Position numbers and translations under genes: made by a program
Shown here: positions 3,986-49,760 of the stretch, one piece after another
How positions within the stretch are numbered: the first letter of the stretch is position 1
Layout: each line of letters opens with the position of its first letter
From: Escherichia coli
Lineage (GTDB): Bacteria > Pseudomonadota > Gammaproteobacteria > Enterobacterales > Enterobacteriaceae
Assembly (NCBI RefSeq): GCF_016903815.1
Contig: NZ_CP069973.1
Length of the DNA: 64,000 bases
Reading direction: 5' to 3' (one strand)
Notes under the pieces: model-generated
Told to the model about the DNA's origin: nothing
The model's database searches: none
Seen by the model: only the letters and a program-made list of their open reading frames with translations

Positions 3986-4894
<909 letters not shown>

Positions 4895-5452
4895 TCCAGG
4901 AGATGCTCCTGCATGGCTTTCAGATATGCATTTTCTGCGCGAAGATAACGCAGCTCATTCTTCATCTCTTCCGGCGTCATGTTTGCCTCGTTTTCATGGG
5001 TATCATCAGAACGGGTCATGCATTTCTCCTTCCTGCGCCTGATAAAGGCCTCATTACCAGATTTGCGGTAGCCTTTTATCCAGTTTTTAACCGTGTTGTG
5101 GCTGGGAATGTTAAACCGGGCAGCTACCCGGGGTAGAGACTCAGAATGCCCGAGAGCATAAAGAACCACGCAAAGTTTATCTTCAGGAGAATAGCTACGC
5201 CTGTGTCTGCAATCCAGTGCCCGAGGACCGTGAAGAAGAAAAAGATTAATCCAGTGTGAGAGGCTGGTGTGAGAAAGTTGAAAGAGTTTTGCCGTAGAAA
5301 TGATGCCTGCATGACCAGCCAGGTAATGATTTACAGCGGCAAGTTTTACTTCAAATGAATGTTTCATAAACTGCACCTTCAGATGTCAGATTATGTCCAA
5401 CATTTGGGGTGCAGTTCAGCCAGCGTCGCATCCGGCATTTTTTTCACCAACG

Positions 5453-23627: not shown

Positions 23628-24677
23628 TTATGCAACCTCTGCCGCCATATTGTCGCCAACATACAGCGATAACGGATTAAGGGTTACAGCTTGTTCAAGG
23701 TGGTCAGGAGCAAAGTGTGCATACTTCATTGTTTCTCGAATATTGGCATGCCCGAGAATTTTCTGCAGTACCAGTATATTCCCGCCGTTCATCATAAAAT
23801 GCGCACCAAAAGTATGACGCAAAACGTGCGTCTTCTGCCCTTCCGTCAATTCAATATTCGTTAGTTTGAGCATCTTCTTAAACTCCTGATAGCAGGGTTT
23901 AAACATTCTGCCTTGACGTACGGACAACTCGTCGTACAGCCATTTAGGAATAGGAACTGTGCGATTCTTCTTACCTTTGGTTTTGGTGAACGTCAGTTTA
24001 TATGGAGAAAGTTGAGGGCGGGTCAATCTCTCCGCTTCCCCCCATCGAGCGCCGGTTGCAAGGCACACCTTAACAATCATGGTGAGGTCTTCTTTGCCGT
24101 ATTGCTCGCAGGCTCGAAACAGCTCCGGGAGCTGAGACAAAGTTAGCCAGGACATTTCTTTCTCAGCCTCTTTGAATACTCGGATCCCATCAAGTGGATT
24201 GGGTAGGCTCCACTCCCCTAACCGGCGGAGCTCATTAAACACTGCTTCTAGGTATTGTTGTTCGCGATTGACGGTTATAGGTTTGGCGATCCATTTCGAG
24301 GGGTCTTTATGATAACCGTTGTCTATTTCACCACGTAATCGACGGTCACGATAATGAGCCCAGTCTTTCGCGGTAAGGCGAGATGCAATCGGGTCACCAA
24401 GCCCATTACATACGATTTGAAGCTTTGCTAACCTCGACTTACTGGCGACTAACGCTTGACCGTGCAAATTGTGCCAAAGCTGAATAATCTCGCTTAAGCG
24501 TCGGCGGTCTTCTTTCTTGCCAAGCCACGGCTTATCTTCACTCTCGCTTTTGGTAAATGCTTCGAATGCCTCGGCCTCACCTTTGGTATTGAATTGCCGA
24601 CGTATACGCCGCCCTTCTCGACCATTTGGATAGAGCTCGCATAACCATTTGCCATTTTTTTGCTTACTTACAGTCAT
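23628..24677 (-). CDS. int: Phage integrase (tyrosine recombinase), P2/186 Int family
   Basis: The 349-aa product has the C-terminal motif HVLRHTFGAHFMMNGGNILVLQKILGHANIRETMKYAH and is adjacent to attL. Confidence 0.93.
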   Translation of the reverse strand: MTVSKQKNGKWLCELYPNGREGRRIRRQFNTKGEAEAFEAFTKSESEDKPWLGKKEDRRRLSEIIQLWHNLHGQALVASKSRLAKLQIVCNGLGDPIASRLTAKDWAHYRDRRLRGEIDNGYHKDPSKWIAKPITVNREQQYLEAVFNELRRLGEWSLPNPLDGIRVFKEAEKEMSWLTLSQLPELFRACEQYGKEDLTMIVKVCLATGARWGEAERLTRPQLSPYKLTFTKTKGKKNRTVPIPKWLYDELSVRQGRMFKPCYQEFKKMLKLTNIELTEGQKTHVLRHTFGAHFMMNGGNILVLQKILGHANIRETMKYAHFAPDHLEQAVTLNPLSLYVGDNMAAEVA

Positions 24678-30722: not shown

Positions 30723-30921
30723 ACATAATAACCGTGCTGGCGCAAAAACTAGCTTTTTGCGTCGGCGGGGTTGAGTAACGAGCCCACGAGGCTTAAGTCC
30801 TGCCTTTCAAAATTTCTCAATGTGCTATTGATGACACGCCCATGATTAATGAGGCATGACCTGAGATGGTTTTATAGTGGCGTTTTGACGGCACTGATTA
30901 AAATTCATTGAGGGTGATAAT

Positions 30922-31131
30922 ATGCATCGACTACCAGGTGAAATACCGCAACACAAAACTAAAAGCATCAAACTGATGGCCATCGTTCATCGTTTGCAGC
31001 AGATAATGGTCAATGAGAATTTGACACCCGCAGAGCTGGTCGGGTGTGCCGAAATAGTCAGGGATAATTACGGCAAGCTGGATAGCATCAGCAGGTCGAA
31101 ACAATACGCACCACCACCACGTCGACGATAG
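30922..31131 (+). CDS. Hypothetical 69-aa protein (cargo region)
   Basis: The evidence is the ORF alone. It is flanked by the two repeat units at 30733-30797 and 31136-31203. Confidence 0.35.
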   Translation: MHRLPGEIPQHKTKSIKLMAIVHRLQQIMVNENLTPAELVGCAEIVRDNYGKLDSISRSKQYAPPPRRR

Positions 31132-31205
31132 CAAACGCCGCCGGTTCTGAAACTCGCTTTCAGTACTGGCGGGGGTTGAACAACGAGCACCGCGAGGCGT
31201 TAGCA

Positions 31206-32147
31206 TTAATTTATTTTTAATGAATGGTAATCTCGTGAGTTGACCGAAGATTTGAGATAACTGCAATCATTAACCGACAGTATTGCCGCTAATAGGCGAC
31301 ATACCAGTGCCTGCATTTGCAGCAATATATCGTTACCATATTGACTGTTGTTAACACTTGAGAAACCAAGCGGTTGACCAAAAAAAATAGCCTCATGAAA
31401 ATTATCATTGCGGATGCCAGAAATGTTTTTTTTACCTGACACCCATGTGGGGATTGATAACCCATAAATTTTGCACATCCACTTTAATCGCTTGTAATGA
31501 TTTGGCGGTTTTTTATCAGGAGCCTTGTCATGCTCAGCCCACGACAAAGCAAAGCACCCATCAAGTGCCATGTAAAGGTACTGGAATTTTTCAAAAGAAA
31601 GGTATTGTGGGTTTTGAGATAAGAATAGTGCATGCACCACTGCCGCAATTCTTTTGGGGGAGTGCGCATCCTTATGTTTGCCATTTATATAATTAAGAGC
31701 CAGTTCTATGACTTCTTTTTCAGAGCATCCAACGAGAATAAAGTCGGTTAACTTAGTGGGCTTGATAGTGGTTGCATCTAAAAAACCAGCGTCAGTGGTT
31801 GTCAATCTTATTCCCTTGAAAAAAGAAAGGCACCACACAATAAAGTTGAGAGTTTCTAACGAGGATGTATTTTTTAATTTTAGTGTGTGCGTTTTGGGCA
31901 TACTGAATACTCGGTGACTATAAGGCATTGTGGATATGCCACCATTAAGGTTATATACATCTTGGTTTCCAGGGTATATCCAACCTTTCACAACGTTTTT
32001 ATCATTATTAACACGCTCCACTTTCTCATTGAGACCAGGTAAAGTAAGCAAAGAAAATTGTTCAGTCTCAATGTTAACTTCTACTGGATAGTATCCAAAC
32101 TCCGACATAATCTCATTGGGTTGCTGTTCGTCAACTTCACCTTGCAT
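31206..32147 (-). CDS. Hypothetical 313-aa protein with C-terminal RNDNFH (Rx4H, HEPN-like) motif; candidate phage-exclusion factor
   Basis: It is a long AT-rich ORF (22/60 G+C in line 31861). GGAGAAAG lies 2 nt before ATG 32147. The motif is encoded at 31395-31412. It occupies the gpA-to-cos slot where P2 carries tin/old. Confidence 0.7.
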   Translation of the reverse strand: MQGEVDEQQPNEIMSEFGYYPVEVNIETEQFSLLTLPGLNEKVERVNNDKNVVKGWIYPGNQDVYNLNGGISTMPYSHRVFSMPKTHTLKLKNTSSLETLNFIVWCLSFFKGIRLTTTDAGFLDATTIKPTKLTDFILVGCSEKEVIELALNYINGKHKDAHSPKRIAAVVHALFLSQNPQYLSFEKFQYLYMALDGCFALSWAEHDKAPDKKPPNHYKRLKWMCKIYGLSIPTWVSGKKNISGIRNDNFHEAIFFGQPLGFSSVNNSQYGNDILLQMQALVCRLLAAILSVNDCSYLKSSVNSRDYHSLKIN

Positions 32148-32384
32148 ATCTTTCTCCGTTCAAAAATAGGCTCGATAATTATCGAGAGGCTATCATGTTT
32201 GGAAAGAATCAATGTCCGTAATTTTTGTAAATTTAAGGTGATTTATCAATAAATAAGCTGTGCATGCAACAGGTGCATGGTTCTGCATGCGCCGGGGTTA
32301 CCCGTTTTGTACGTGCGCCGCAAGAGCTGGCGGGGATCCAGAGTGGTCATGCAACTGCATTAAAACCGCCCCATAAAGCGGGCA

Positions 32385-32403
32385 GGCGTGGCGGGGAAAG
32401 CAT
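32385..32403. other. cos cohesive-end site (186 type)
   Basis: GGCGTGGCGGGGAAAGCAT matches my memory of the 19-nt 186 cohesive end (P2: GGCGAGGCGGGGAAAGCAC). Confidence 0.8.
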
Positions 32404-32622
32404 TGCGCGCCAGCAGTGATGCGTAATAATAAAAATTATCCTCTGAGCGCGTCGTGATGGCGCTGTCGTGGTCGCTGCTGGTTCGTTGGTGGTCGGGTGT
32501 GTTCGTGCGCGTGAGACGCATCTGATGCGTGATGGTGGTGTGCATGGAAAAGCCACCAGGAGCAGCGGCTTTACAGGAGTGGCAGGATTCAAACTGCTAA
32601 TTATGTTTCTACTATGATTAAA

Positions 32623-33627
32623 CTAATTTACATGTATGTAGAGTTCACCGTCGCCAGACCAATCGGGACACTCTAAAACAAGCCCAAACTGCTTGAATAT
32701 TTCATCAATGATTATTGTTATCTCCCGAAAATCACCAAAACCTGTAATGTGCTGGTCATTAAACTTCCCATAAAGATTCTGAAAAGCAATGCCTAATTCT
32801 GATAATTGATATCTTATCTTTGAGTTGGATAGTGTAAGGGATAGCTTTGGATCGTATTCTTTAATATTGATGTTTAGAGAATGGACATAACCCATCGCAT
32901 AAGCATAAGAGTTGATGATTAGCCTGATACGTTTTTTTACTTCGAGATACATGTCATTCAGAGAAATATTACCGTACTTATAACCCCAGATGAGTTTTTC
33001 AATCTCGTCAGATACTTCATTTACAACAGTGTCAAGATTCTCTAAAAATAAATCGATAGTTTCTTGAGGGGCAGACCCCGAAGACATGTAATTAGCGAGA
33101 TATTCAGACCATGCACGCGTGGCTGAGATAAGAAGCGCGCTACCATACTCGTTGACTGTAAAGTTTTGGGCTAAGCATGTTAGTAAGTTTTTTTCATGTA
33201 CGTGCACTAATTCATGGTGAATGCGATGGATGACTGCGAGGTATCCTTCTTCTTTCAGTTTTAAGAAGCTACCATCATTGAAAAGCTCAACAAAAAAATC
33301 AATCGATAGCACAAGGGTATATTCTTCACATAGCCCATCATTGCCAATTTTTGTTACTAACTGCCCGACGGCTGCGCCCTGTTTGCTATTGGTAAATGAA
33401 CTAGGGGATTTGTGTTGGTAAGAGGATGTTACCTTTTGAAGAGCTTCACTGAAGTTATAGGAAACAATCACGCATTTTAATTTGGAGATATCAAGATTGA
33501 GATTTTTTGTTAAAGCTCGGATAGCTTCTAGTGTGAAATTACCGATATTATTTGCTTCTTGCTCAGTAGCGAAACCTTCGAGGGTTATTTTAAAATCAGT
33601 TTCCAAAATATTAATCTCCGCGCCCAT
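32623..33627 (-). CDS. Hypothetical 334-aa protein with HELVH (HExxH) motif; candidate zinc metallopeptidase-like exclusion factor
   Basis: It is a long AT-rich ORF (20/60 G+C in line 32821). HExxH is encoded at 33202-33216 (verified by hand). It lies between cos and the portal gene. Confidence 0.7.
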   Translation of the reverse strand: MGAEINILETDFKITLEGFATEQEANNIGNFTLEAIRALTKNLNLDISKLKCVIVSYNFSEALQKVTSSYQHKSPSSFTNSKQGAAVGQLVTKIGNDGLCEEYTLVLSIDFFVELFNDGSFLKLKEEGYLAVIHRIHHELVHVHEKNLLTCLAQNFTVNEYGSALLISATRAWSEYLANYMSSGSAPQETIDLFLENLDTVVNEVSDEIEKLIWGYKYGNISLNDMYLEVKKRIRLIINSYAYAMGYVHSLNINIKEYDPKLSLTLSNSKIRYQLSELGIAFQNLYGKFNDQHITGFGDFREITIIIDEIFKQFGLVLECPDWSGDGELYIHVN

Positions 33628-34752: not shown

Positions 34753-36522
34753 TTAGTTGAACTCCAGAATAGATTTAGGCTGCATGCCGCTACCGGCAGA
34801 AAGCGGTTCGTTTAACAGGGCGTGCATGGTCGCCCATGCGATATCGGCGTGGCTGGCTTCCTCGGTGCGGCTGGCCTCATAGGTGGCGCTGCGCCCGCTG
34901 CTGGTCATGGTTTTGCGGATGGACATAAACGACTGCGTGACGTCGGTTGCTCCGGCGTCGTACTCCAGACAGCCACGGCGAATGGTGTCTTTCGCCTTGA
35001 GTACCATTGCGGTTTTCATTTCAGGTGTGTAACGGATGCCGCGTGCCGCCGGGTAAAATGAGCGCACCAGCTGGAACACGCCGAGACCGAGGCCGGTTGC
35101 GTCAATGCCGATGTATTCGACGTTGTATTTCTCGGTCAGCTTGCGGATGCCCTCTGCCTGTGCTGCAAAATCCATGCCCTTCCACTGGTGGCGCTCCAGC
35201 ATGCGGAACTTGCCACCAGAGACCACCGGCGGCGCGAGCACGACGCACCCGGCACTGTCGCCGGTGTGTGACGGGTCGTAGCCAATCCAGACAGGACGAG
35301 AGCCGAACGGATGGTCGGCGAACGGGGCAAAGTCCTCCCATTCCTCCATTACATCGACCATGCAGCGCTGCAGCTCCTCGAACGGGAATACCGACGCTTT
35401 ATCGTCGACAAACTCGCACATAAACAGGTTCTTAAAGTCCTCATCACTGTTTTCGCGTTTGAGCTGGTCGAGGTCGAACAGGGTGCAGCCACCCGCAAGG
35501 GCGTCCTCAATGGTGACAATCTGCCGCCACTGGCCATCGTCGCAGAGCTGGCCACCGGCGAGCGCGCTGTGACTGATGTCGATTTCGATGCGGTCGGCAA
35601 TCCGGCTGCGCCCCTTGTTGAACAGCTCGCCAGACCAGAAGGGGTAAGCGCCGTGCGCCAGCGTGGAAGGTGTCGAAAAATAGGTCGAGCGCAGGTGCTT
35701 TTGCGAGGCCATGCCCGAGGCGACTTTGCGCAGTTTCTGAAAATTCGGGATCCAGAATATTTCATCGACATACAGATCGCCGTTATGGCTCTGCGCGGTG
35801 TTGGAATTGGTACCGAGAAAAATCAGTTTTGCGCCGTTGTTACCGATGACAATCGGGTCGCCAGTCAGGTCAACGTCGACCAGTCGCGCAAACTGGATGA
35901 TGTATTCGCGGAACACGTAAGCCTGCGTTTTACTGGCTGATAAAAATATCTGGTTATGGCCGGTTTTGAGTGCGCGCAGCAGTGCCTCGCGGGAGAAATA
36001 GAATGTCGCGCCAATCTGGCGGGATTTGAGAATGTCACGAATACGGTGCTCCAGTCCTGCGCGGTACCACTGCAACTGGTACTCGAAAGACTGGTCGAAA
36101 AATAATTCCTCTAGTTTATCGATAGCCTCGTCGCTGAAAAAATTCTTTTTCGGCTTTTTGCGCTCCCCTTTGTTGCGGTTGGCGACGTTGGGGTTAAGGT
36201 CGGCTTCGTTGCCGGTCTGGCTGTAGCGGTTGACTCGCGCCAACCGTTCAATCTGCCGTCCGAGCAGGTCAATCTCTTTGAAATCACCCCCTGTCTTTTG
36301 CGGCTTGGCGATGAGCTGAATCAGCCTAGCCTCAAGGCTGCTTTCAACGCGGGAAATCGGCGCGATGCCGTCCCAGCCGTCACGCTGCTTCCAGCTCTGC
36401 ACGGTCGGGCGCTTGACCTGCAGCATTTCGGCAATCTGTGGCACGGAAAAACCCTGCCAGTAAAGCAGCGATGCCTGCCGTCGCGGGTCATGCAACAAGG
36501 TTGTATCGGTGGAAATGGTCAT
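34753..36522 (-). CDS. P: Terminase large subunit (P2 gpP homolog)
   Basis: The 589-aa product is in the gpP position, divergent from O-N-M. Confidence 0.92.
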   Translation of the reverse strand: MTISTDTTLLHDPRRQASLLYWQGFSVPQIAEMLQVKRPTVQSWKQRDGWDGIAPISRVESSLEARLIQLIAKPQKTGGDFKEIDLLGRQIERLARVNRYSQTGNEADLNPNVANRNKGERKKPKKNFFSDEAIDKLEELFFDQSFEYQLQWYRAGLEHRIRDILKSRQIGATFYFSREALLRALKTGHNQIFLSASKTQAYVFREYIIQFARLVDVDLTGDPIVIGNNGAKLIFLGTNSNTAQSHNGDLYVDEIFWIPNFQKLRKVASGMASQKHLRSTYFSTPSTLAHGAYPFWSGELFNKGRSRIADRIEIDISHSALAGGQLCDDGQWRQIVTIEDALAGGCTLFDLDQLKRENSDEDFKNLFMCEFVDDKASVFPFEELQRCMVDVMEEWEDFAPFADHPFGSRPVWIGYDPSHTGDSAGCVVLAPPVVSGGKFRMLERHQWKGMDFAAQAEGIRKLTEKYNVEYIGIDATGLGLGVFQLVRSFYPAARGIRYTPEMKTAMVLKAKDTIRRGCLEYDAGATDVTQSFMSIRKTMTSSGRSATYEASRTEEASHADIAWATMHALLNEPLSAGSGMQPKSILEFN

Positions 36523-42553: not shown

Positions 42554-43435
42554 CTAACCTCGTATTATTCCTCTCGATATTTTTATTGCTGGGTTTTCCT
42601 TTCTTATTTCATTTTTAATTTGCTCATCACAAATTAAATAATCTATGTTTTTTGCTTTAACAAGTTCTTTAACGCTAATGTTAATTGAATTTAATAGATT
42701 TGCATTCCGCATGTTAGCCCCTTCATAAGTAACGGATTTAAAATCACATCCTTTTAATATGCAGCTTTTCATTTCGCTATCTGTAAAATACCCCCCTTCA
42801 AAACTGCAGTTTTCGAAAGTGACATTTTGAAAACATGTATTAAATGCCTTAATATTTCTTAGCTTGCAGTTTTTGAATTTAACACTCTTAACTCTATTGC
42901 CTGTAATATTTAGAGCTTGAATTGTGCAATTATCGAAAGAACAATCTCTAATGTATGATTCGCTCATATTCAAGCCGGTTAAGTCAGCGTCTTTAAAATG
43001 TAAATATTTGATAGTGGACATTTTATCAAGTTCAATCCTTGGAACTTGAATGTTATATATTCCTTTAGCATTTAACTGACGTATGATTTTTATCTTCATA
43101 ATATTCAGTTCTGCAGAAGAATGCTTTGCCAGATTTTCAAGATCTTCAATTAGTTCGTGAATAGCATCTTTATTTTGCCTTTTATTTTCAAAATAGTAAA
43201 GAATCACACCCAAAACAAGAAAGTCTAAAATTGAAGAATTTGCATTAACAAGAAAATTCTCCATGAATTTTGAGTTGTAGTTATCATTATAAACAGACAA
43301 CCCTACTATAAGCCCGGAGTATAAAAAAAAGATACCTATAATATATTTCATATTGCTTATTGTACGCCTAAAAGATGAAGTTCTTTTCATTACTACCTGC
43401 CATATGTTTTGTGTGATTTTCGAATGAGTCAACAC
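42554..43435 (-). CDS. Membrane-anchored pentapeptide-repeat protein (moron at the P2 orf30 position)
   Basis: The ORF is very AT-rich (11/60 G+C in line 42601 versus 34/60 in line 42001). Two hydrophobic segments are present (YIIGIFFLYSGLIVGLSVY and ILDFLVLGVILYYF). About 20 consecutive pentads follow (CSFDN CTIQA LNITG ... CDFKS VTYEG ANMRN). The start may be the internal M at 43390. Confidence 0.75.
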   Translation of the reverse strand: MLTHSKITQNIWQVVMKRTSSFRRTISNMKYIIGIFFLYSGLIVGLSVYNDNYNSKFMENFLVNANSSILDFLVLGVILYYFENKRQNKDAIHELIEDLENLAKHSSAELNIMKIKIIRQLNAKGIYNIQVPRIELDKMSTIKYLHFKDADLTGLNMSESYIRDCSFDNCTIQALNITGNRVKSVKFKNCKLRNIKAFNTCFQNVTFENCSFEGGYFTDSEMKSCILKGCDFKSVTYEGANMRNANLLNSINISVKELVKAKNIDYLICDEQIKNEIRKENPAIKISRGIIRG

Positions 43436-45422: not shown

Positions 45423-46023
45423 CCGGCTATTACCCGTTGGCTCGTCGCCGCTGGAGGTCGCCGCCGCCGCTGCGTTCTCTGAGATTCAGCGCGTGCCGGT
45501 ACCGCTGCGCACCCTGTGGAACTGGCGCACCTGCCCGGTAAAGCTGCTGCCGTATCTGGCGTGGGCGCTGTCGGTCGACAGGTGGGATGAGAAATGGCCG
45601 GAGGCGACAAAGCGCAGCGTCTGCGCGTCCTCGTTTTTCGTCCATCAGCACAAAGGCACCATCAGCGCATTGCGTCGGGTCGTCGAGCCGCTCGGCTTTC
45701 TGATTGAGGTGCGCGAGTGGTGGCAACTCGACGAGGAGCCAGGCACATTCCGCCTCGTTGTTGGCGTCCTCGACAGCGGCATCACTGACGAAATGTATCA
45801 GGAGCTTGAGCGCCTGATTGAAGACGCCAAACCGGCAAGTCGCCACCTGACCGGGCTGGCTATCAGTCTGAGCTCGACCGGCGAACTGTATGTCGGCGCG
45901 GGATGCTATCACGGCGACGCGCTGACTGTTTACCCCTACACCCCCGAGGAGATTGTCGTCGGCGGTGAATATTACCCGGCCTCGGCCATCCATTTGATTG
46001 ATAATCTGAGAGTGAACGCATGA
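45415..46023 (+). CDS. I: Baseplate/tail-fibre attachment protein I
   Basis: LLPVGSSPLEVAAAAAFSEI...VDRWDEKWPEATKR parallels gpI. Confidence 0.88.
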   Translation: MNDRLLPVGSSPLEVAAAAAFSEIQRVPVPLRTLWNWRTCPVKLLPYLAWALSVDRWDEKWPEATKRSVCASSFFVHQHKGTISALRRVVEPLGFLIEVREWWQLDEEPGTFRLVVGVLDSGITDEMYQELERLIEDAKPASRHLTGLAISLSSTGELYVGAGCYHGDALTVYPYTPEEIVVGGEYYPASAIHLIDNLRVNA

Positions 46024-46994
46024 CCGCAAAATATTTTGCCATTCTGACCAATCAGGGCGCGGCGCGGCTGGCGAACGCGGCGGCACTCGGTACCAAACTC
46101 AACCTGACGCAGATGGCCGTCGGTGATGCGAATGGTACGTTGCCGACCCCTGACCCGGCGCAGACGAAGCTCATTAACCAGAAACGCATCGCGCCGCTGA
46201 ACCTGCTGACCGTTGACCCGGCCAATACCAGTCAGATTATCGCGGAACAGATTATTCCCGAGAATGAAGGTGGTTTCTGGATCCGCGAGATTGGTCTCTA
46301 TGACGATGATGGTATTCTGATTGCCGTGGCGAACTGTCCGGAGACCTACAAGCCACAACTGCAGGAGGGAAGCGGTCGCACGCAGACCATTCGCATGATT
46401 CTGATTGTGTCGAGCACATCGGCAATCACCCTGAAAATCGACCCGGCAGTCGTGCTGGCAACGCGCCAGTATGTCGACGACAAGATTATCGAGGTGAAAG
46501 GATATGCTGATGACCTGATGAAAAAACATGTTGAGGCCGCCAATCCACACAAGCAGTACCCGTTAATCGCTAATGCTCTGAAAGAAATGGTTGACGCGGG
46601 ACTGGCCGGCGACGTTCTTAAAAACCTTGGTTTGGGAGAAGCGGCAAAACGGAATGTAGGTAACGGGCAAAACCAAATTCCGGATATGGCGGCGTTTGCC
46701 AGTTCACTTTCATCAACGGGTTTTCAAAAACTCCCTTCAGGTCTGATTATTCAGTGGGGTATTGTCAGTGGAGCATCAAACTATACGGTGACTTACCCGG
46801 TAACATTCCCAAATCGTTCACTTGCGCTGTTGGCTGTGCCACATACAACGTCGGTGGCTGGTATATCTGCAATGGGCATAGCGAACTGTTCTGATATCAG
46901 CAAATCACAGTTCTATATAATTGTTGGCGGTATATCTCAGGGAGAAATTGTCAAATATGAAAGGTCCTGTTTTTGGGTAGCAATCGGTGTATAG
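46020..46994 (+). CDS. H: Tail fibre protein H (constant part 46020-46640 fused to the currently expressed variable C-terminal cassette)
   Basis: The N-terminus parallels P2 H and Mu S (MAVGD...GGFWIREIGLYDDDGILIAVAN...). The recombination site lies inside the gene at 46615-46640. Confidence 0.88.
   Translation: MTAKYFAILTNQGAARLANAAALGTKLNLTQMAVGDANGTLPTPDPAQTKLINQKRIAPLNLLTVDPANTSQIIAEQIIPENEGGFWIREIGLYDDDGILIAVANCPETYKPQLQEGSGRTQTIRMILIVSSTSAITLKIDPAVVLATRQYVDDKIIEVKGYADDLMKKHVEAANPHKQYPLIANALKEMVDAGLAGDVLKNLGLGEAAKRNVGNGQNQIPDMAAFASSLSSTGFQKLPSGLIIQWGIVSGASNYTVTYPVTFPNRSLALLAVPHTTSVAGISAMGIANCSDISKSQFYIIVGGISQGEIVKYERSCFWVAIGV
46615..46640 (+). repeat. Left crossover site (gix/hix-like)
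   Basis: TTCTTAAAAACCTTGGTTTGGGAGAA is present. Its right half and about 50 following nt are repeated in inverted orientation at 48100-48170. Confidence 0.75.
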
Positions 46995-47002
46995 GTATAT
47001 CT

Positions 47003-47398
47003 ATGATTTATTTCTCAAAATCGACTAATGGTTTTTTCTTTGATGGTATAAACAGCGACATGCCTGCTGACATTGTTGAGATAAGTACAGACTTATACAA
47101 TGAATTAATTGCCGGACAGCAGGAAGGGGGGAAATTAATCACGTCAGATGAAAATGGTTTACCGGTACTGAAATCTCCGGCGATTGATTATGTCGCACGT
47201 GCGGAAAATCAGCGAATGCAGTTACTTGCTCATGCCGATAATGTCACAGCTGACTGGCGAGTGGAATTAATGCTTGGTGATATCAGCAGTACAGATAAAG
47301 AAAAACTATCCGCCTGGATGAACTACAAAAAAGAAGTAAAAGCCGTCGACACTTCGACGGCTCCTGAGATTAGCTGGCCTGAGTTACCGGAGGCGTAG
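47003..47398 (+). CDS. G: Tail fibre assembly chaperone G (active orientation)
   Basis: MIYFSKSTNGFFFDG... is typical of tail fibre assembly proteins. It follows H. Confidence 0.85.
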   Translation: MIYFSKSTNGFFFDGINSDMPADIVEISTDLYNELIAGQQEGGKLITSDENGLPVLKSPAIDYVARAENQRMQLLAHADNVTADWRVELMLGDISSTDKEKLSAWMNYKKEVKAVDTSTAPEISWPELPEA

Positions 47399-47813
47399 GC
47401 CATTCAATATCTGGCGCACTGGAAGTATTGACCTGTTCCAGTGCGTCCAGGTAATCCAGCCACAAATTATATTGCGCCAGTTCGTCACCGTTCAGACGAC
47501 CAATAGCTGCTTTACCGGGCCATTGCTTACTGTTCATGTAGTCGTTTGCCTGGTTGATTTTTTTCTGCTTTTCGGCGTTCGCAGCTTCCACTTCTTCATC
47601 GTGACTTAACGGTGGTAAATCCACCCATACAGGCTGCCCATTTTCATCAGCGCCGCGGGTTTGCCCTTCTGGTGGCATTCCTGAATATGTGAGAAAAACG
47701 TCATCAGAAACACCTACTAAGTCATCTGGCCAGGTGTTGGCTGCTATGTACAGCGACTTCATTTCTTCAGGGTAAAAACCTAGAGTTGATGGAGAAAAAT
47801 AATAAAGAGTCAT
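47370..47813 (-). CDS. Alternative tail fibre assembly chaperone (inverted cassette)
   Basis: MTLYYFSPSTLGFYPEE... is present, in the same family as G but on the opposite strand inside the invertible segment. Confidence 0.8.
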   Translation of the reverse strand: MTLYYFSPSTLGFYPEEMKSLYIAANTWPDDLVGVSDDVFLTYSGMPPEGQTRGADENGQPVWVDLPPLSHDEEVEAANAEKQKKINQANDYMNSKQWPGKAAIGRLNGDELAQYNLWLDYLDALEQVNTSSAPDIEWPTPPVTQAS

Positions 47814-47814
47814 A

Positions 47815-48165
47815 TCAGCTTCCTATTGCGAACCAGCGAAAGACATAAACCCCAGATGTTGCATCACAGCGCATCAGGAAATTTGTTTTTGTAAAACTTC
47901 CTGCCGCTCCCGCAATAACCTTTCCACCACCATTGTCGTAAGAGACTACAACCTGATGGCAAATGTTCGGAAAAGAAACCGAGAAGTTAATTGCATTTCC
48001 CGTATTACCTGTCGCACCCACTCCGGCTGTTGCTGATCCCCATTGAATGATTAAGCCGCTAGGTAGTTTTTGATATCCAGCAGCACCCGTTACAGACAAA
48101 AATGAATTTATATCTGGAATCTGGTTTTCCCCTGTTCCGACATCCCGTTTCGCTGCTTCTCCCAA
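47815..48165 (-). CDS. Alternative tail fibre C-terminal cassette (silent; needs inversion to fuse to H constant part)
   Basis: GEAAKRDVGTGENQIPDI parallels GEAAKRNVGNGQNQIPDM of H after the crossover site. It has no independent translation start context. Confidence 0.75.
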   Translation of the reverse strand: MGEAAKRDVGTGENQIPDINSFLSVTGAAGYQKLPSGLIIQWGSATAGVGATGNTGNAINFSVSFPNICHQVVVSYDNGGGKVIAGAAGSFTKTNFLMRCDATSGVYVFRWFAIGS

Positions 48166-48182
48166 ACCAACCTTTTAGAAAA
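48157..48182 (-). repeat. Right crossover site (inverted)
   Basis: The reverse complement TTTTCTAAAAGGTTGGTTTGGGAGAA shares 14 contiguous nt plus AAAA with the left site. Confidence 0.75.
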
Positions 48183-48236
48183 TGCAGATATTCCGTTCAG
48201 CTGGCATGTTTCCGACTTTTTACCGGGTTATTTCTC

Positions 48237-48483
48237 ATGTTTATCGGTTATGTACGTGTATCAACAAATGACCAGAACACCGCATTACAGCGAAATGAAC
48301 TGGAGTGCGCAGGATGTGAGCTGATTTTCGAAGATAAAATCAGCGGCAAAACATCAATCAGACTGGCCGGGGCTAAAGAGGTTACTCAGAACCTTGTCAG
48401 AGGGCGATACGCTTGTGGTCTGGAAACTGGATCGCCTCGGGTATCTCAACGCTATACAAACAATTTCCCGCATCCGTTGCTGA
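48237..48483 (+). pseudogene. Serine DNA invertase (Pin/Gin/Hin family), frameshifted and 3'-truncated
   Basis: MFIGYVRVSTNDQNTALQRNELECAGCELIFEDKISGKTS is an invertase N-terminus with the catalytic Ser. The homologous continuation PGLKRLLRTLSEGDTLVVWKLDRLG is in the +1 frame. The reading then diverges and stops at 48481-48483, and the rest of the gene is absent. Confidence 0.8.
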
Positions 48484-48581
48484 TGTCTCAATGTGTCAGA
48501 CATCGCCCAACACTGACAAATAGCCCCTCAACAGACCAGCCAGGACAATAACACTTGCCCACTAACCACGGAGTTAACCGG

Positions 48582-49760
48582 ATGAGTGATTTTCACCACG
48601 GCGTGCAGGTGCTTGAGATTAACGACGGCACCCGCGTCATTTCCACTGTTGCAACCGCAATTGTCGGCATGGTCTGCACGGCCAGCGATGCGGATGCCGA
48701 GACATTCCCCCTCAACGAACCGGTATTGATTACCAATGTGCAGAGCGCCATTGCAAAAGCCGGTAAAAAAGGCACGTTGTCTGCCTCCCTGCAGGCTATC
48801 GCCGACCAGTCAAAACCCGTCACAGTTGTCGTGCGTGTTGCCGAAGGTACCGGAGAAGACGCCGAAGCGCAGACCATTTCCAATATCATCGGCGGCACGG
48901 ATGAGAACGGTAAATATACCGGCATCAAGGCGCTGTTGACTGCCGAAGCAGTCACCGGCGTTAAGCCGCGCATTCTCGGCGTGCCGGGTCTCGATACCAA
49001 AGAGGTCGCAGTCGCACTTGCTTCGGTCTGTATCAGCCTGCGCGCGTTTGGTTATGTCAGCGCATGGGGTTGTAAAACCATTTCCGAGGCGATGGCCTAT
49101 CGCGAGAATTTCAGCCAGCGCGAGCTGATGGTCATCTGGCCTGATTTCCTTGCATGGGATACCACCACAAACGCCACCGCACCGGCATACGCAACTGCGC
49201 GCGCACTCGGCCTGCGTGCCTATATCGACCAGACCGTCGGCTGGCACAAAACCCTGTCTAACGTCGGCGTGCAGGGTGTTACCGGCATCAGTGCGTCAGT
49301 GTTTTGGGATTTGCAGGCATCCGGCACCGATGCTGATCTGCTCAACGAGGCCGGGGTCACGACACTGGTGCGTAAGGATGGCTTCCGCTTTTGGGGTAAC
49401 CGCACCTGCTCTGATGACCCGCTTTTCCTGTTTGAGAACTACACCCGCACCGCGCAGGTGCTGGCCGACACGATGGCCGAGGCGCACATGTGGGCGGTCG
49501 ATAAGCCCATCACCGCATCACTTATCCGTGACATTGTCGACGGCATTAACGCCAAATTCCGCGAGCTGAAATCAAACGGCTACATCGTGGACGGTGAATG
49601 CTGGTTCGACGAGGAATCGAACGATAAGGAAACCCTCAAGGCCGGGAAACTGTATATCGACTACGACTATACACCGGTTCCACCACTGGAAAGCCTAACC
49701 CTGCGCCAGCGTATCACCGATAAATATCTGGTGGATCTGGCCGAATCGGTCAACAGCTAA
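48582..49760 (+). CDS. FI: Tail sheath protein FI
   Basis: The start is at MSDFHHGVQVLEINDGTRVI, giving 392 aa in the gpFI family. Confidence 0.92.
   Translation: MSDFHHGVQVLEINDGTRVISTVATAIVGMVCTASDADAETFPLNEPVLITNVQSAIAKAGKKGTLSASLQAIADQSKPVTVVVRVAEGTGEDAEAQTISNIIGGTDENGKYTGIKALLTAEAVTGVKPRILGVPGLDTKEVAVALASVCISLRAFGYVSAWGCKTISEAMAYRENFSQRELMVIWPDFLAWDTTTNATAPAYATARALGLRAYIDQTVGWHKTLSNVGVQGVTGISASVFWDLQASGTDADLLNEAGVTTLVRKDGFRFWGNRTCSDDPLFLFENYTRTAQVLADTMAEAHMWAVDKPITASLIRDIVDGINAKFRELKSNGYIVDGECWFDEESNDKETLKAGKLYIDYDYTPVPPLESLTLRQRITDKYLVDLAESVNS

What the first reader, a model, noticed from the sequence alone, without database searches (positions are those of the whole stretch)
46615..48483. 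Gin/Pin-type invertible tail-fibre segment locked by decay of its invertase
Inverted copies of a 26-bp crossover-like site are present: TTCTTAAAAACCTTGGTTTGGGAGAA at 46615-46640, and TTTTCTAAAAGGTTGGTTTGGGAGAA as reverse complement of 48157-48182. Homologous coding sequence follows each site (GEAAKRNVGNGQNQIPDM versus GEAAKRDVGTGENQIPDI). The sites bracket two alternative fibre-tip and chaperone cassettes, as in the Mu G, P1 C and e14 P segments. The adjacent invertase gene (48237-) keeps only about 65 N-terminal codons. A +1 frame change occurs after ...ISGKTS, the conserved GDTLVVWKLDRLG continues in another frame, and homology is then lost with a stop at 48481. The host-range switch is therefore probably frozen in the present orientation unless a trans-acting invertase (for example e14 Pin, or Fin-type enzymes elsewhere in the genome) complements it. 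The remnant sits at the P2 Z/fun cargo position.
Basis: partly seen in the sequence, partly recalled or inferred. Interest (0 to 1): 0.5.

Follow-up and report, generated by a model that had tools for sequence, protein, structure and literature searches.

The report
Orphan phage tail-fibre switch still flips
This is an ordinary Mu/P1-type invertible tail-fibre segment in a 186/P2-like E. coli prophage whose own invertase gene is dead, but near-identical genomes show it has still flipped, most likely through an invertase borrowed from another mobile element such as a P1-like plasmid.

Summary
Two inverted 26-bp crossover sites (46615-46640, 48157-48182) bracket a 1,544-bp segment. It holds two mirror-image cassettes, each a fibre tip plus its chaperone, next to a dead serine-invertase gene in an otherwise intact 186/P2-like prophage.

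The lesion is mis-described. The old lesion, shared by 34 complete E. coli genomes, is a ~313-nt internal deletion (Pin residues ~67-170).

"Locked" is not supported for the lineage. Three independent clone pairs differ only by a precise inversion at the central TT, with 0 other mismatches in 8.6-8.9 kb, and all carry the dead gene.

The seven chromosomes with this exact prophage hold no other full-length Din invertase detectable by blastn. Strain 2779, identical to the window over the parts compared, has none on the plasmids examined, so there the switch is probably static. Its inverted clone-mate 5283 carries a P1-like plasmid with an intact invertase (82% identical to Pin) whose own sites nearly match these.

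The switch is therefore non-autonomous and helper-dependent. That was already described for E. coli EC958 prophage Phi4. New member of a known kind; modest interest.

The parts
46020..46994 (+). Expressed tail-fibre gene (P2 H / Mu S analogue), 324 aa. The constant N-terminal part ends at the left crossover site and is fused to variable tip Sv.
   Evidence: ORF. Pfam PF12571 Phage_tail_fib at residues 1-150 (E 9e-63) and PF21882 Gp53-like_C at 237-323. RefSeq 'phage tail protein' WP_136499904.1.
46615..46640 (+). Left 26-bp crossover site, TTCTTAAAAACC-TT-GGTTTGGGAGAA, inside the fibre coding sequence (...KNLGLGE...). The central dinucleotide TT is at 46627-46628.
   Evidence: Exchange at this core reproduces the inverted alleles exactly. 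It differs at 3 of 26 positions from a natural site of the pMB9880_2 invertase.
46627..48170 (.). Invertible segment, 1,544 bp, core to core.
   Evidence: Inverting exactly this interval in silico gives the strain 222 locus with 0/8601 mismatches. The whole segment is 100% identical in 7 E. coli genomes, 4 in this orientation and 3 inverted.
47003..47398 (+). Tail-fibre assembly chaperone (Tfa/U analogue) that goes with Sv, 131 aa.
   Evidence: Pfam PF02413 Caudo_TAP, E 2e-24. RefSeq WP_061350398.1.
47370..47813 (-). Alternative chaperone Tfa' (U' analogue), 147 aa, silent in this orientation.
   Evidence: Pfam PF02413, E 3e-31. Only 28% identical to Tfa. RefSeq WP_061350397.1.
47815..48165 (-). 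Alternative fibre tip Sv', promoterless and lacking its N-terminus in this orientation. After inversion it fuses in frame to give an intact 320-aa fibre.
   Evidence: Pfam PF21882 Gp53-like_C, E 1e-17. In-silico fusion gives 320 aa, matching the 963-nt 'phage tail protein' CDS annotated in strain 222.
48157..48182 (-). Right 26-bp crossover site, read on the minus strand as TTTTCTAAAAGG-TT-GGTTTGGGAGAA. The core is at 48169-48170.
48237..48483 (+). Serine-invertase pseudogene. About 66 N-terminal codons are retained, interrupted by the ATCA duplication. The ~313-nt internal deletion follows, then ~11 C-terminal codons in another frame.
   Evidence: Translations. Alignments to the JX21CE33 gene, pinE and gin. 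Pfam PF00239 matches only profile positions 2-78 of 145 and there is no HTH domain. RefSeq calls it 'recombinase family protein, frameshifted'.
48258..48322 (.). Stretch homologous to the position of the Fis-dependent recombinational enhancer inside Din invertase genes. It is intact and starts 88 bp from the right site core.
   Evidence: Placed by alignment with pinE and gin. It lies upstream of both lesions. Position and size match the description of the hin enhancer in PMC3798978: 65 bp, about 100 bp from a hix site. Function is inferred, not shown; its identity to pin and gin is no higher than that of flanking coding sequence.
48353..48360 (+). 4-bp tandem duplication ATCA-ATCA.
   Evidence: present in the window and Res13, absent in EC12 and CH423.
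48440..48441 (+). Junction of the ~313-nt internal deletion, which removes the equivalent of Pin residues ~67-170: the rest of the catalytic domain, helix E and most of the HTH domain.
   Evidence: The same junction is present in 34 of 5,426 complete E. coli genomes.
48582..49760 (+). Tail sheath gene FI (context; marks the P2 Z/fun cargo slot).
   Evidence: RefSeq 'phage tail sheath protein' WP_106489990.1.

Best explanation
This is a non-autonomous Din-type (Gin/Cin/Pin/Min-like) host-range switch in an otherwise intact 186/P2-like prophage. The cis-acting parts are all intact: two inverted 26-bp crossover sites with the same central TT, two complete cassettes of fibre tip plus chaperone, and the 5' stub of the invertase gene that covers the expected enhancer position. 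The enzyme gene was destroyed long ago by a ~313-nt internal deletion, and in this lineage also by a 4-bp duplication. Inversion between the sites swaps the last ~117 residues of the fibre and its chaperone. It still happens, but only when another element in the cell supplies a compatible Din-family invertase. In this clone the visible candidate is the Min/Cin-type invertase of a P1-like phage-plasmid. Without a helper, as appears to be the case in the strain matching the window, the segment stays in whichever orientation it last had. Shown: the anatomy; the lesions; precise post-decay inversion in three clones; no other full-length Din gene detectable by blastn on the seven chromosomes; and a compatible intact invertase on a plasmid of one inverted clone-mate. 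Inferred: that this plasmid enzyme, or one like it, did the flipping; that the retained stub acts as an enhancer; and that the two fibres give different host ranges.
For: Anatomy.
Post-decay inversion:
- Inverting 46627-48170 in silico equals the strain 222 locus with 0/8601 mismatches, pseudogene lesions included.
- EC12 vs EC15 gives 0/8924 and CH423 vs CH425 gives 0/8919 after the same operation.
- The exchange falls within a 15-16-bp identical stretch that starts at the core TT, which is too short for RecA-dependent recombination.
Same clone: 23.5 kb of chromosomal flank, including an IS3 insertion, matches perfectly in 2779 (window orientation) and 5283 (inverted).
Age of the lesion: the identical deletion is in 34/5426 genomes with different cassettes.
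No resident enzyme:
- The tag plus full-length pin/gin/JX genes gives 2 places and the tag alone gives 1.
- The tag plus only the deleted and C-terminal region gives 1, at E<=1e-5 and at E<=10.
- The extra place is a 147-nt pinH-type fragment beside ypjA.
- On strain 2779's plasmids, tblastn finds only resolvase-type genes, 34-37% identical.
Helper:
- Strain 5283's P1-like plasmid pMB9880_2 encodes an intact 190-aa invertase, 82% identical to Pin and 85% to the remnant's N-terminus.
- It sits beside a 7-site inversion region whose sites share our core and right half-site, and one of them differs from our left site at 3/26 positions.
- Its DNA is 77% identical to pin over 441 nt, so the chromosome screen would have caught such a gene.
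Precedent: EC958 Phi4 has a truncated invertase yet PacBio reads show inversion, attributed by the authors to an enzyme in trans (PMC4134206).
Against: No experiment or read-level data shows that the plasmid enzyme acts on these sites. Strains 222 and 103, also inverted, show no P1-like plasmid in the parts of their three plasmids that I read, so a helper must have been lost or is unrecognised there. The chromosome screen works at DNA level and has a limit of roughly 65-70% identity, so a divergent serine recombinase would be missed. For the ST405-like clone, independent lysogenisation by virions of either orientation is not excluded. The enhancer-homologous stretch shows no extra conservation beyond its coding role, so its function here is only positional inference. 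I could not establish whether the EC12/EC15 and CH423/CH425 clones contain a helper (one search failed).
Confidence: 0.72

Rival explanations
1. Frozen fossil: since the invertase decayed the segment can no longer invert, and the present orientation is fixed.
For: The invertase gene is certainly dead. In the strain identical to the window over the compared parts (2779) I found no Din-type invertase on the chromosome by blastn or on the plasmids I read (1-3 in full by tblastn, plasmid 4 in part from its annotation). The switch may therefore be static in that strain today.
Against: Both orientations exist with identical lesions and no other differences in three clones. Both cassettes are still intact ORFs. 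The dead gene is old, shared by 34 genomes, yet orientation still varies within clones.
Confidence: 0.1
2. There is no in-situ flipping in this clone. Clone-mates were lysogenised separately by virions of the same phage packaged in either orientation, with the orientation set in some other host that had an invertase.
For: The prophage looks intact and 186-like. Only 7 of the many genomes sharing the identical 23.5-kb flank carry this prophage, so recent and possibly repeated acquisition is possible. Strains 222 and 103 show no helper in the plasmid parts read.
Against: It still needs trans inversion somewhere, so it relocates the mechanism rather than replacing it. It does not fit CH423/CH425/CH458, whose genomes differ in length by only a few bp, or EC12/EC15 from one hospital. 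It would require identical integration and zero SNPs in every case.
Confidence: 0.12
3. Inversion is catalysed by an unrecognised enzyme outside the Din family, or by a Din relative too divergent for blastn, encoded on the chromosome.
For: By DNA search the seven chromosomes have only the dead gene and a 147-nt stub. Two inverted strains, 222 and 103, have no obvious helper.
Against: The sites are canonical Din sites. A canonical enzyme with near-identical natural sites is present in clone-mate 5283. Cross-complementation among Gin, Cin, Pin and Hin is established knowledge. Resolvase-type recombinases on the plasmids are only 34-46% identical to Pin or Gin, and from what is known of resolvases, not from any test here, they would not be expected to invert such sites.
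Confidence: 0.05
4. Homologous recombination or replication template-switching between the 67-nt imperfect inverted repeat, or an assembly artefact, produced the two orientations.
For: An inverted repeat exists.
Against: The longest perfect identity is about 16 bp. All three independent events map to that same stretch, which begins at the core dinucleotide. The repeats are far shorter than the reads, so assemblers cannot mis-orient the segment. Three independent clones show the same clean exchange.
Confidence: 0.01

Closest known systems
Prophage Phi4 of E. coli ST131 EC958 (Forde et al. 2014, PMC4134206)
   Same: It is an E. coli prophage tail-fibre segment bounded by 26-bp Din-type crossover sites, and its adjacent invertase is truncated and lacks the HTH domain. 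It was nevertheless seen in both orientations. The authors conclude that another enzyme acted in trans.
   Different: It is a different prophage with different site sequences (TTATCGAATACCTC GGTTTACAGGAA) and a 3.1-kb segment. The proposed helper there is a co-resident chromosomal prophage (Phi1). Here no chromosomal helper is detectable, the candidate is on a P1-like plasmid present in only some clone-mates, and the evidence comes from comparing genomes rather than from within-culture reads.
Mu G segment / Gin, P1 C segment / Cin, e14 P segment / Pin
   Same: The layout is the same: a constant fibre part, a left site, Sv-U, U'-Sv', a right site, then the invertase (Mu annotation, e14). All have 26-bp sites with a 2-bp core. 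Remnant and Pin align from codon 1. In these systems the enhancer lies inside the 5' part of the invertase gene (Kahmann 1985 and Johnson & Simon 1985, as cited in PMC3798978).
   Different: Those systems are autonomous because their invertase is intact. The segment here is small (1.5 kb), has short Gp53-like tips, and sits in a 186/P2-type phage at the Z/fun slot.
p15B Min / P1-like phage-plasmid multiple-inversion regions (represented here by pMB9880_2)
   Same: It shares the core TT and the right half-site GGTTTGGG(A/G)GAA. Its invertase is 85% identical to the remnant's N-terminal 67 residues.
   Different: It has seven sites and several shuffling fibre fragments on a plasmid prophage, with an intact enzyme. 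It is the proposed donor of the activity, not the same element.
pinH-type invertase fragment beside ypjA
   Same: It is another decayed Din invertase gene in the same chromosome.
   Different: It is a 147-nt internal fragment with no sites, no cassettes and no evidence of activity: a true fossil.

Membership tests
Din-family (Gin/Cin/Pin/Hin/Min) invertible segment | Two 26-bp crossover sites in inverted orientation with identical central dinucleotide | tested here: met
   46615-46640 and 48157-48182, both with core TT and an identical right half GGTTTGGGAGAA. They fit the published site table and consensus (PMC4134206).
Din-family (Gin/Cin/Pin/Hin/Min) invertible segment | The segment carries alternative fibre C-termini with their matching chaperones in mirror arrangement, fused in frame to a constant N-terminal part outside it | tested here: met
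   Pfam gives Gp53-like_C twice and Caudo_TAP twice on opposite strands. Both fusions are intact ORFs of 324 and 320 aa.
Din-family (Gin/Cin/Pin/Hin/Min) invertible segment | Adjacent intact serine invertase (Resolvase catalytic domain plus C-terminal HTH) | tested here: not met
   Only profile positions 2-78 of 145 of PF00239 remain, with no HTH domain. The gene has a ~313-nt deletion and a 4-bp duplication. The locus is therefore a non-autonomous derivative, not a complete system.
Din-family (Gin/Cin/Pin/Hin/Min) invertible segment | Fis-dependent recombinational enhancer in cis, normally within the 5' part of the invertase gene | tested here: inconclusive
   The homologous 65-bp stretch (48258-48322) is retained intact, starting 88 bp from the right core. 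Position and size agree with PMC3798978. I could not register Fis sites with confidence, and there is no extra conservation. Function needs an experiment.
Din-family (Gin/Cin/Pin/Hin/Min) invertible segment | The segment actually inverts by exchange at the site cores | tested here: met
   Three clone pairs differ only by an inversion whose breakpoints fall within the 15-16 bp that begin at the core TT.
   4 genomes have one orientation and 3, plus phage record ON470592, have the other, all with identical lesions. Two other clones are also polymorphic.
Trans-dependent (non-autonomous) invertible segment, as in EC958 Phi4 | Own invertase defective, inversion observed, and a compatible invertase encoded elsewhere in the cell | tested here: inconclusive
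   The first two features are met. A compatible intact invertase was found in clone-mate 5283 on plasmid pMB9880_2. None was found in 2779, and none in the parts of strain 222's plasmids that I read.
186/P2-like (Peduoviridae) prophage | P2 gene order (Q-P/O-N-M-L, lysis, R-S, V-W-J-I-H-G, FI-FII-E-T-U-D, ogr), a 186-type CI/CII/Fil/replication module, and an integrase at one end | tested here: met
   RefSeq annotation of the identical region in strain 2779. The nearest phage record, ON470592, is classified in Peduoviridae.

The most novel reading that the evidence does not exclude
The prophage family has lost its invertase for good (the same deletion in 34 genomes) but keeps the crossover sites, both cassettes and the enhancer-bearing 5' stub. 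Its host-range switch has become a non-autonomous element that depends on invertases carried by unrelated mobile elements such as P1-like phage-plasmids, much as a MITE depends on a transposase. A stronger variant also remains possible: the inverted strains without any recognisable helper (222, 103) might be flipped by a recombinase not yet recognised as an invertase.
Probability: 0.3. Interest if true: 0.5.

Novelty: new member of a known kind. Interest (0 to 1): 0.3.

Why it matters
It corrects an easy annotation inference: a dead invertase does not mean a fixed fibre allele. For prophage typing, host-range prediction and comparison of long-read assemblies, orientation at such loci should be treated as variable and as dependent on the rest of the mobilome. 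The clone-mates 2779 (no helper) and 5283 (P1-like plasmid with an invertase) form a ready-made natural experiment. It can test whether one mobile element controls the host-range switch of another, and whether the retained 5' stub is kept because it carries the enhancer. The underlying phenomenon is already in the literature, so the gain is incremental.

Tried and rejected
1. I tried to locate the 'second invertase-like place' directly. The search tool shows only the best place per record, so I used composite queries (a unique tag plus an invertase panel) and subtraction. A guess from K-12 synteny then found the pinH-type stub.
2. The same composite trick for the EC12 and CH423 clones failed. 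Their cassettes are common e14-type modules, so the target genomes were outranked and not listed. Whether those clones hold a helper remains unknown.
3. I tried to pin down the two Fis cores in the stub. The only source held gives size, spacing and position but not the sequence, and the Johnson 2015 review is not held. A G-N13-C registration gave 49-bp spacing against the published 47 bp, so I make no claim about exact Fis sites.
4. I tested whether the enhancer-like stretch is more conserved than the neighbouring coding sequence. It is not, so there is no independent sign of selection.
5. I considered phage record ON470592 (vB_EcoM-613R3) as evidence that virions are produced. I rejected this because the record is a 'partial genome' that includes host flanks, apparently a predicted prophage.
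6. RecA-mediated inversion and assembly artefact were considered and rejected (see rivals).
7. Resolvase-type recombinases on the resistance plasmids were rejected as helpers: they are only 34-46% identical to Pin or Gin, some are partial, and they lie in Tn3-family contexts.
Full report
**Observation.** TTCTTAAAAACCTTGGTTTGGGAGAA lies at 46615-46640, and TTTTCTAAAAGGTTGGTTTGGGAGAA is the reverse complement of 48157-48182. They are the outer ends of a 67-nt, 82% complementary inverted repeat. Both sites have the central dinucleotide TT and an identical inner half-site, GGTTTGGGAGAA.

- A 324-aa fibre gene at 46020-46994 contains the left site.
- A chaperone gene follows at 47003-47398.
- On the other strand lie a second chaperone (47370-47813) and a promoterless fibre tip (47815-48165) that ends in the right site.

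Pfam assigns the phage tail-collar fibre N-terminal domain to the constant part. It assigns a Gp53-like C-terminal domain to both tips and Caudo_TAP to both chaperones. The tips are about 52% identical over their first ~60 residues and then diverge. The chaperones are 28% identical. Inverting the segment in silico gives an intact 320-aa fibre.

**Context.** The window is identical, over every part compared, to E. coli strain 2779 (NZ_CP103521). Its RefSeq annotation shows a complete-looking 186/P2-like prophage at about window 23.6-55.2 kb, between yfiB and rplS. The only pseudogene in it is 'recombinase family protein, frameshifted'.

**The lesion.** Frame 1 from 48237 reads MFIGYVRVSTNDQ...ISGKTS, frame 2 continues ...PGLKRLLRTLSEGDTLVVWKLDRLG, and a stop follows at 48481-48483. 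So far this is as described. Frame 3 then reads G-ISTLYKQFPA, which is the C-terminal end of Pin (GVSTLYKRFPAGDK).

Alignment with a full-length relative (JX21CE33), e14 pinE and Mu gin shows two separate lesions:
- An internal deletion of about 313 nt, with its junction at 48440/48441. It removes the equivalent of Pin residues ~67-170: the rest of the catalytic domain, helix E and most of the HTH domain.
- A 4-bp tandem duplication, ATCA-ATCA, at 48353-48360.

The deletion is the older lesion. A search with 48171-48620 finds the same junction in 34 of 5,426 complete E. coli genomes at 98-100% identity, and these genomes carry different fibre cassettes. The duplication is restricted to this lineage and Res13; EC12 lacks it and CH423 has a different 1-bp deletion. 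Pfam sees only the first half of the Resolvase domain and no HTH. The gene cannot encode an enzyme.

**Is the switch locked?** No. Seven genomes contain the 1.5-kb segment at 100% identity. Four have the window's orientation: 2779, 98210, 98192 and 98224. In three (222, 103, 5283) only the stretch between the sites aligns on the opposite strand to the flanks.

Inverting window 46627-48170 in silico reproduces the strain 222 locus with 0 mismatches over 8,601 bp, and that stretch includes the pseudogene with both lesions. Two other clones with the same deletion behave the same way:
- EC12 vs EC15: 0/8,924 mismatches after inverting between the sites.
- CH423 vs CH425: 0/8,919 mismatches. These two genomes differ in length by only a few bp.

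In every case the exchange falls inside the 15-16 bp of identity that starts at the core TT. That fits site-specific exchange and is too short for RecA-dependent recombination. Inversion therefore took place after the invertase gene died, at least three times independently. The 23.5 kb of chromosome left of the prophage, including an IS3 insertion, is a perfect match in both 2779 and 5283. Both are blood isolates from Houston and are clone-mates, probably ST405 judging from neighbouring strain names.

**Who supplies the enzyme?** The search tool reports only the best match per record. I therefore used a composite query, with the segment as a tag to rank the seven genomes first, followed by invertase genes, and read off places_in_record.

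| Query | Places in the target chromosomes |
|---|---|
| Tag + full-length pinE, gin and JX21CE33 gene | 2 (only the four window-orientation genomes were listed) |
| Tag alone | 1 (all seven) |
| Tag + only the region our remnant has lost (gene nt ~222-505), E<=1e-5 | 1 (all seven) |
| The same query, E<=10 | 1 (all seven) |

The extra place in strain 2779 is a 147-nt pinH-type fragment beside ypjA that lacks both ends. These chromosomes therefore hold no full-length Din-family invertase detectable at DNA level.

Strain 2779 has four plasmids: a 90-kb IncI1, an 83-kb IncF, a 49-kb phage-plasmid and a 5-kb plasmid. tblastn on the first three, read in full, finds only resolvase-type genes 34-37% identical to Pin or Gin. 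Of the fourth I saw only the annotation of 3.0 of its 5.2 kb, which lists no recombinase. No Din-type invertase turned up.

The inverted clone-mate 5283 carries a 97-kb P1-like phage-plasmid, pMB9880_2. It encodes an intact 190-aa invertase:
- It is 82% identical to Pin, 73% to Gin, and 85% to the 67 residues still encoded by our stub.
- It lies beside a p15B/Min-style region with seven crossover sites.
- One site, AGCATGAAAACG-TT-GGTTTGGGAGAA, shares our core and the entire right half-site.
- Another, TTCTTAATTACC-TT-GGTTTGGGGGAA, differs from our left site at 3 of 26 positions.

Its DNA is 77% identical to pin over 441 nt, so the chromosome screen would have detected a gene of this kind. That exact plasmid is found only in 5283. 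Strain 222, also inverted, has three plasmids that do not look P1-like in the parts I read.

**Enhancer.** Din invertases need a Fis-bound enhancer in cis. According to PMC3798978 the hin enhancer is 65 bp, lies about 100 bp from a hix site, and has two Fis sites 47 bp apart. The titles of the original Mu and Hin papers, cited there, place it within the invertase gene. By alignment, the homologous stretch here is 48258-48322. It starts 88 bp from the right core and lies upstream of both lesions. Every known cis requirement is therefore still present. This is positional inference only: the stretch is no better conserved than its coding neighbours, and I could not register the Fis cores.

**Most likely mechanism.** This is a non-autonomous switch. 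The sites, the cassettes and probably the enhancer are intact, and the enzyme comes from whatever compatible Din invertase shares the cell. In the window's own strain no helper is visible, so the segment is probably static there for now. In the lineage it is not locked. The main rivals are:
- separate lysogenisation by virions of either orientation, which still needs a helper somewhere and does not fit the CH and EC pairs;
- an unrecognised chromosomal recombinase;
- homologous recombination or an assembly artefact.
All rank well below the helper model.

**Comparison with what is known.** The layout is that of the Mu G, P1 C and e14 P segments. The specific situation has already been reported for prophage Phi4 of E. 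coli EC958. That prophage has a truncated invertase without its HTH domain, is still seen in both orientations, and is attributed to another enzyme acting in trans. The same paper tabulates comparable 26-bp sites (PMC4134206). Tail-fibre inversions are also a recognised class in systematic surveys (PMC9881135). What is added here:
- A different prophage family in which one deletion is shared by 34 genomes.
- Genomic evidence of repeated flipping after the gene decayed.
- No chromosomal helper, and a plasmid-borne candidate present in only some clone-mates.

**Verdict.** This is a new member of a known kind, of modest interest.

Noticed in passing
window 42554-43435 (-): A 293-aa pentapeptide-repeat protein gene (Pfam Pentapeptide_4 and Pentapeptide) is inserted between the tail-completion genes and baseplate gene V, on the opposite strand to the late operon. 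It is present in the seven-genome lineage and in phage record ON470592 (there named 'YjcF'). It is absent from the related prophages of EC12 and CH423. It looks like a moron-type cargo gene of unknown role.
   Followed up: partly
window ~30900-33600: Four hypothetical genes lie between the portal gene and the DinI-like/replication module: WP_225568245.1, WP_164966458.1, WP_001622299.1 and WP_001622297.1 in strain 2779. This is a second cargo slot of the prophage.
   Followed up: no
L018 41723-41869 (strain 2779 record 1172723-1172869, about 8 kb beyond the window's right end): A 147-nt pinH-type invertase fragment beside ypjA lacks both ends and is 73% identical to Pin residues 46-94 at protein level. 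The same stub is widespread in E. coli and explains many 5'-only invertase hits.
   Followed up: yes
L025 36344-42900 (plasmid pMB9880_2 of strain 5283): A P1-like phage-plasmid carries an intact Din invertase and a seven-site multiple-inversion fibre region resembling the p15B Min system. Just upstream of the intact gene (36036-36212) there is a second short invertase N-terminal fragment, 66% identical to Pin residues 1-59.
   Followed up: partly
L022 (pMB9272_3, strain 2779) and L026 (plasmid unnamed2, strain 222): Clone-mates 2779 and 222 both carry a ~48-kb myovirus-like phage-plasmid. In 2779's copy a full tail-fibre gene is followed by a fibre fragment lacking its N-terminus plus a chaperone, all on one strand, with no recombinase detectable by tblastn. 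It may be another degenerate or fixed fibre-switch region.
   Followed up: no
window 46641-48156 compared with other genomes: Similar cassettes, in whole or part (83-97% identity), sit next to intact pinE-type invertases in e14-like and other prophages of many E. coli. The 34 prophages sharing the dead invertase carry different cassettes. Fibre-tip and chaperone modules are evidently exchanged between unrelated prophages, with boundaries at or near the crossover sites.
   Followed up: partly
window 23965-23990 (+), inside the integrase gene: A third site-like sequence, TTCTTCTTACCTTTGGTTTTGGTGAA, has 2 mismatches to the core plus right half-site. It has no partner and lies in coding sequence, so it is probably a chance match.
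   Followed up: partly
window ~4019-5367: An IS3-family insertion lies between the rrn operon (5S gene) and kgtP. It is shared with perfect identity by a set of clinical genomes that includes strains named '405', and it is a useful clone marker.
   Followed up: no
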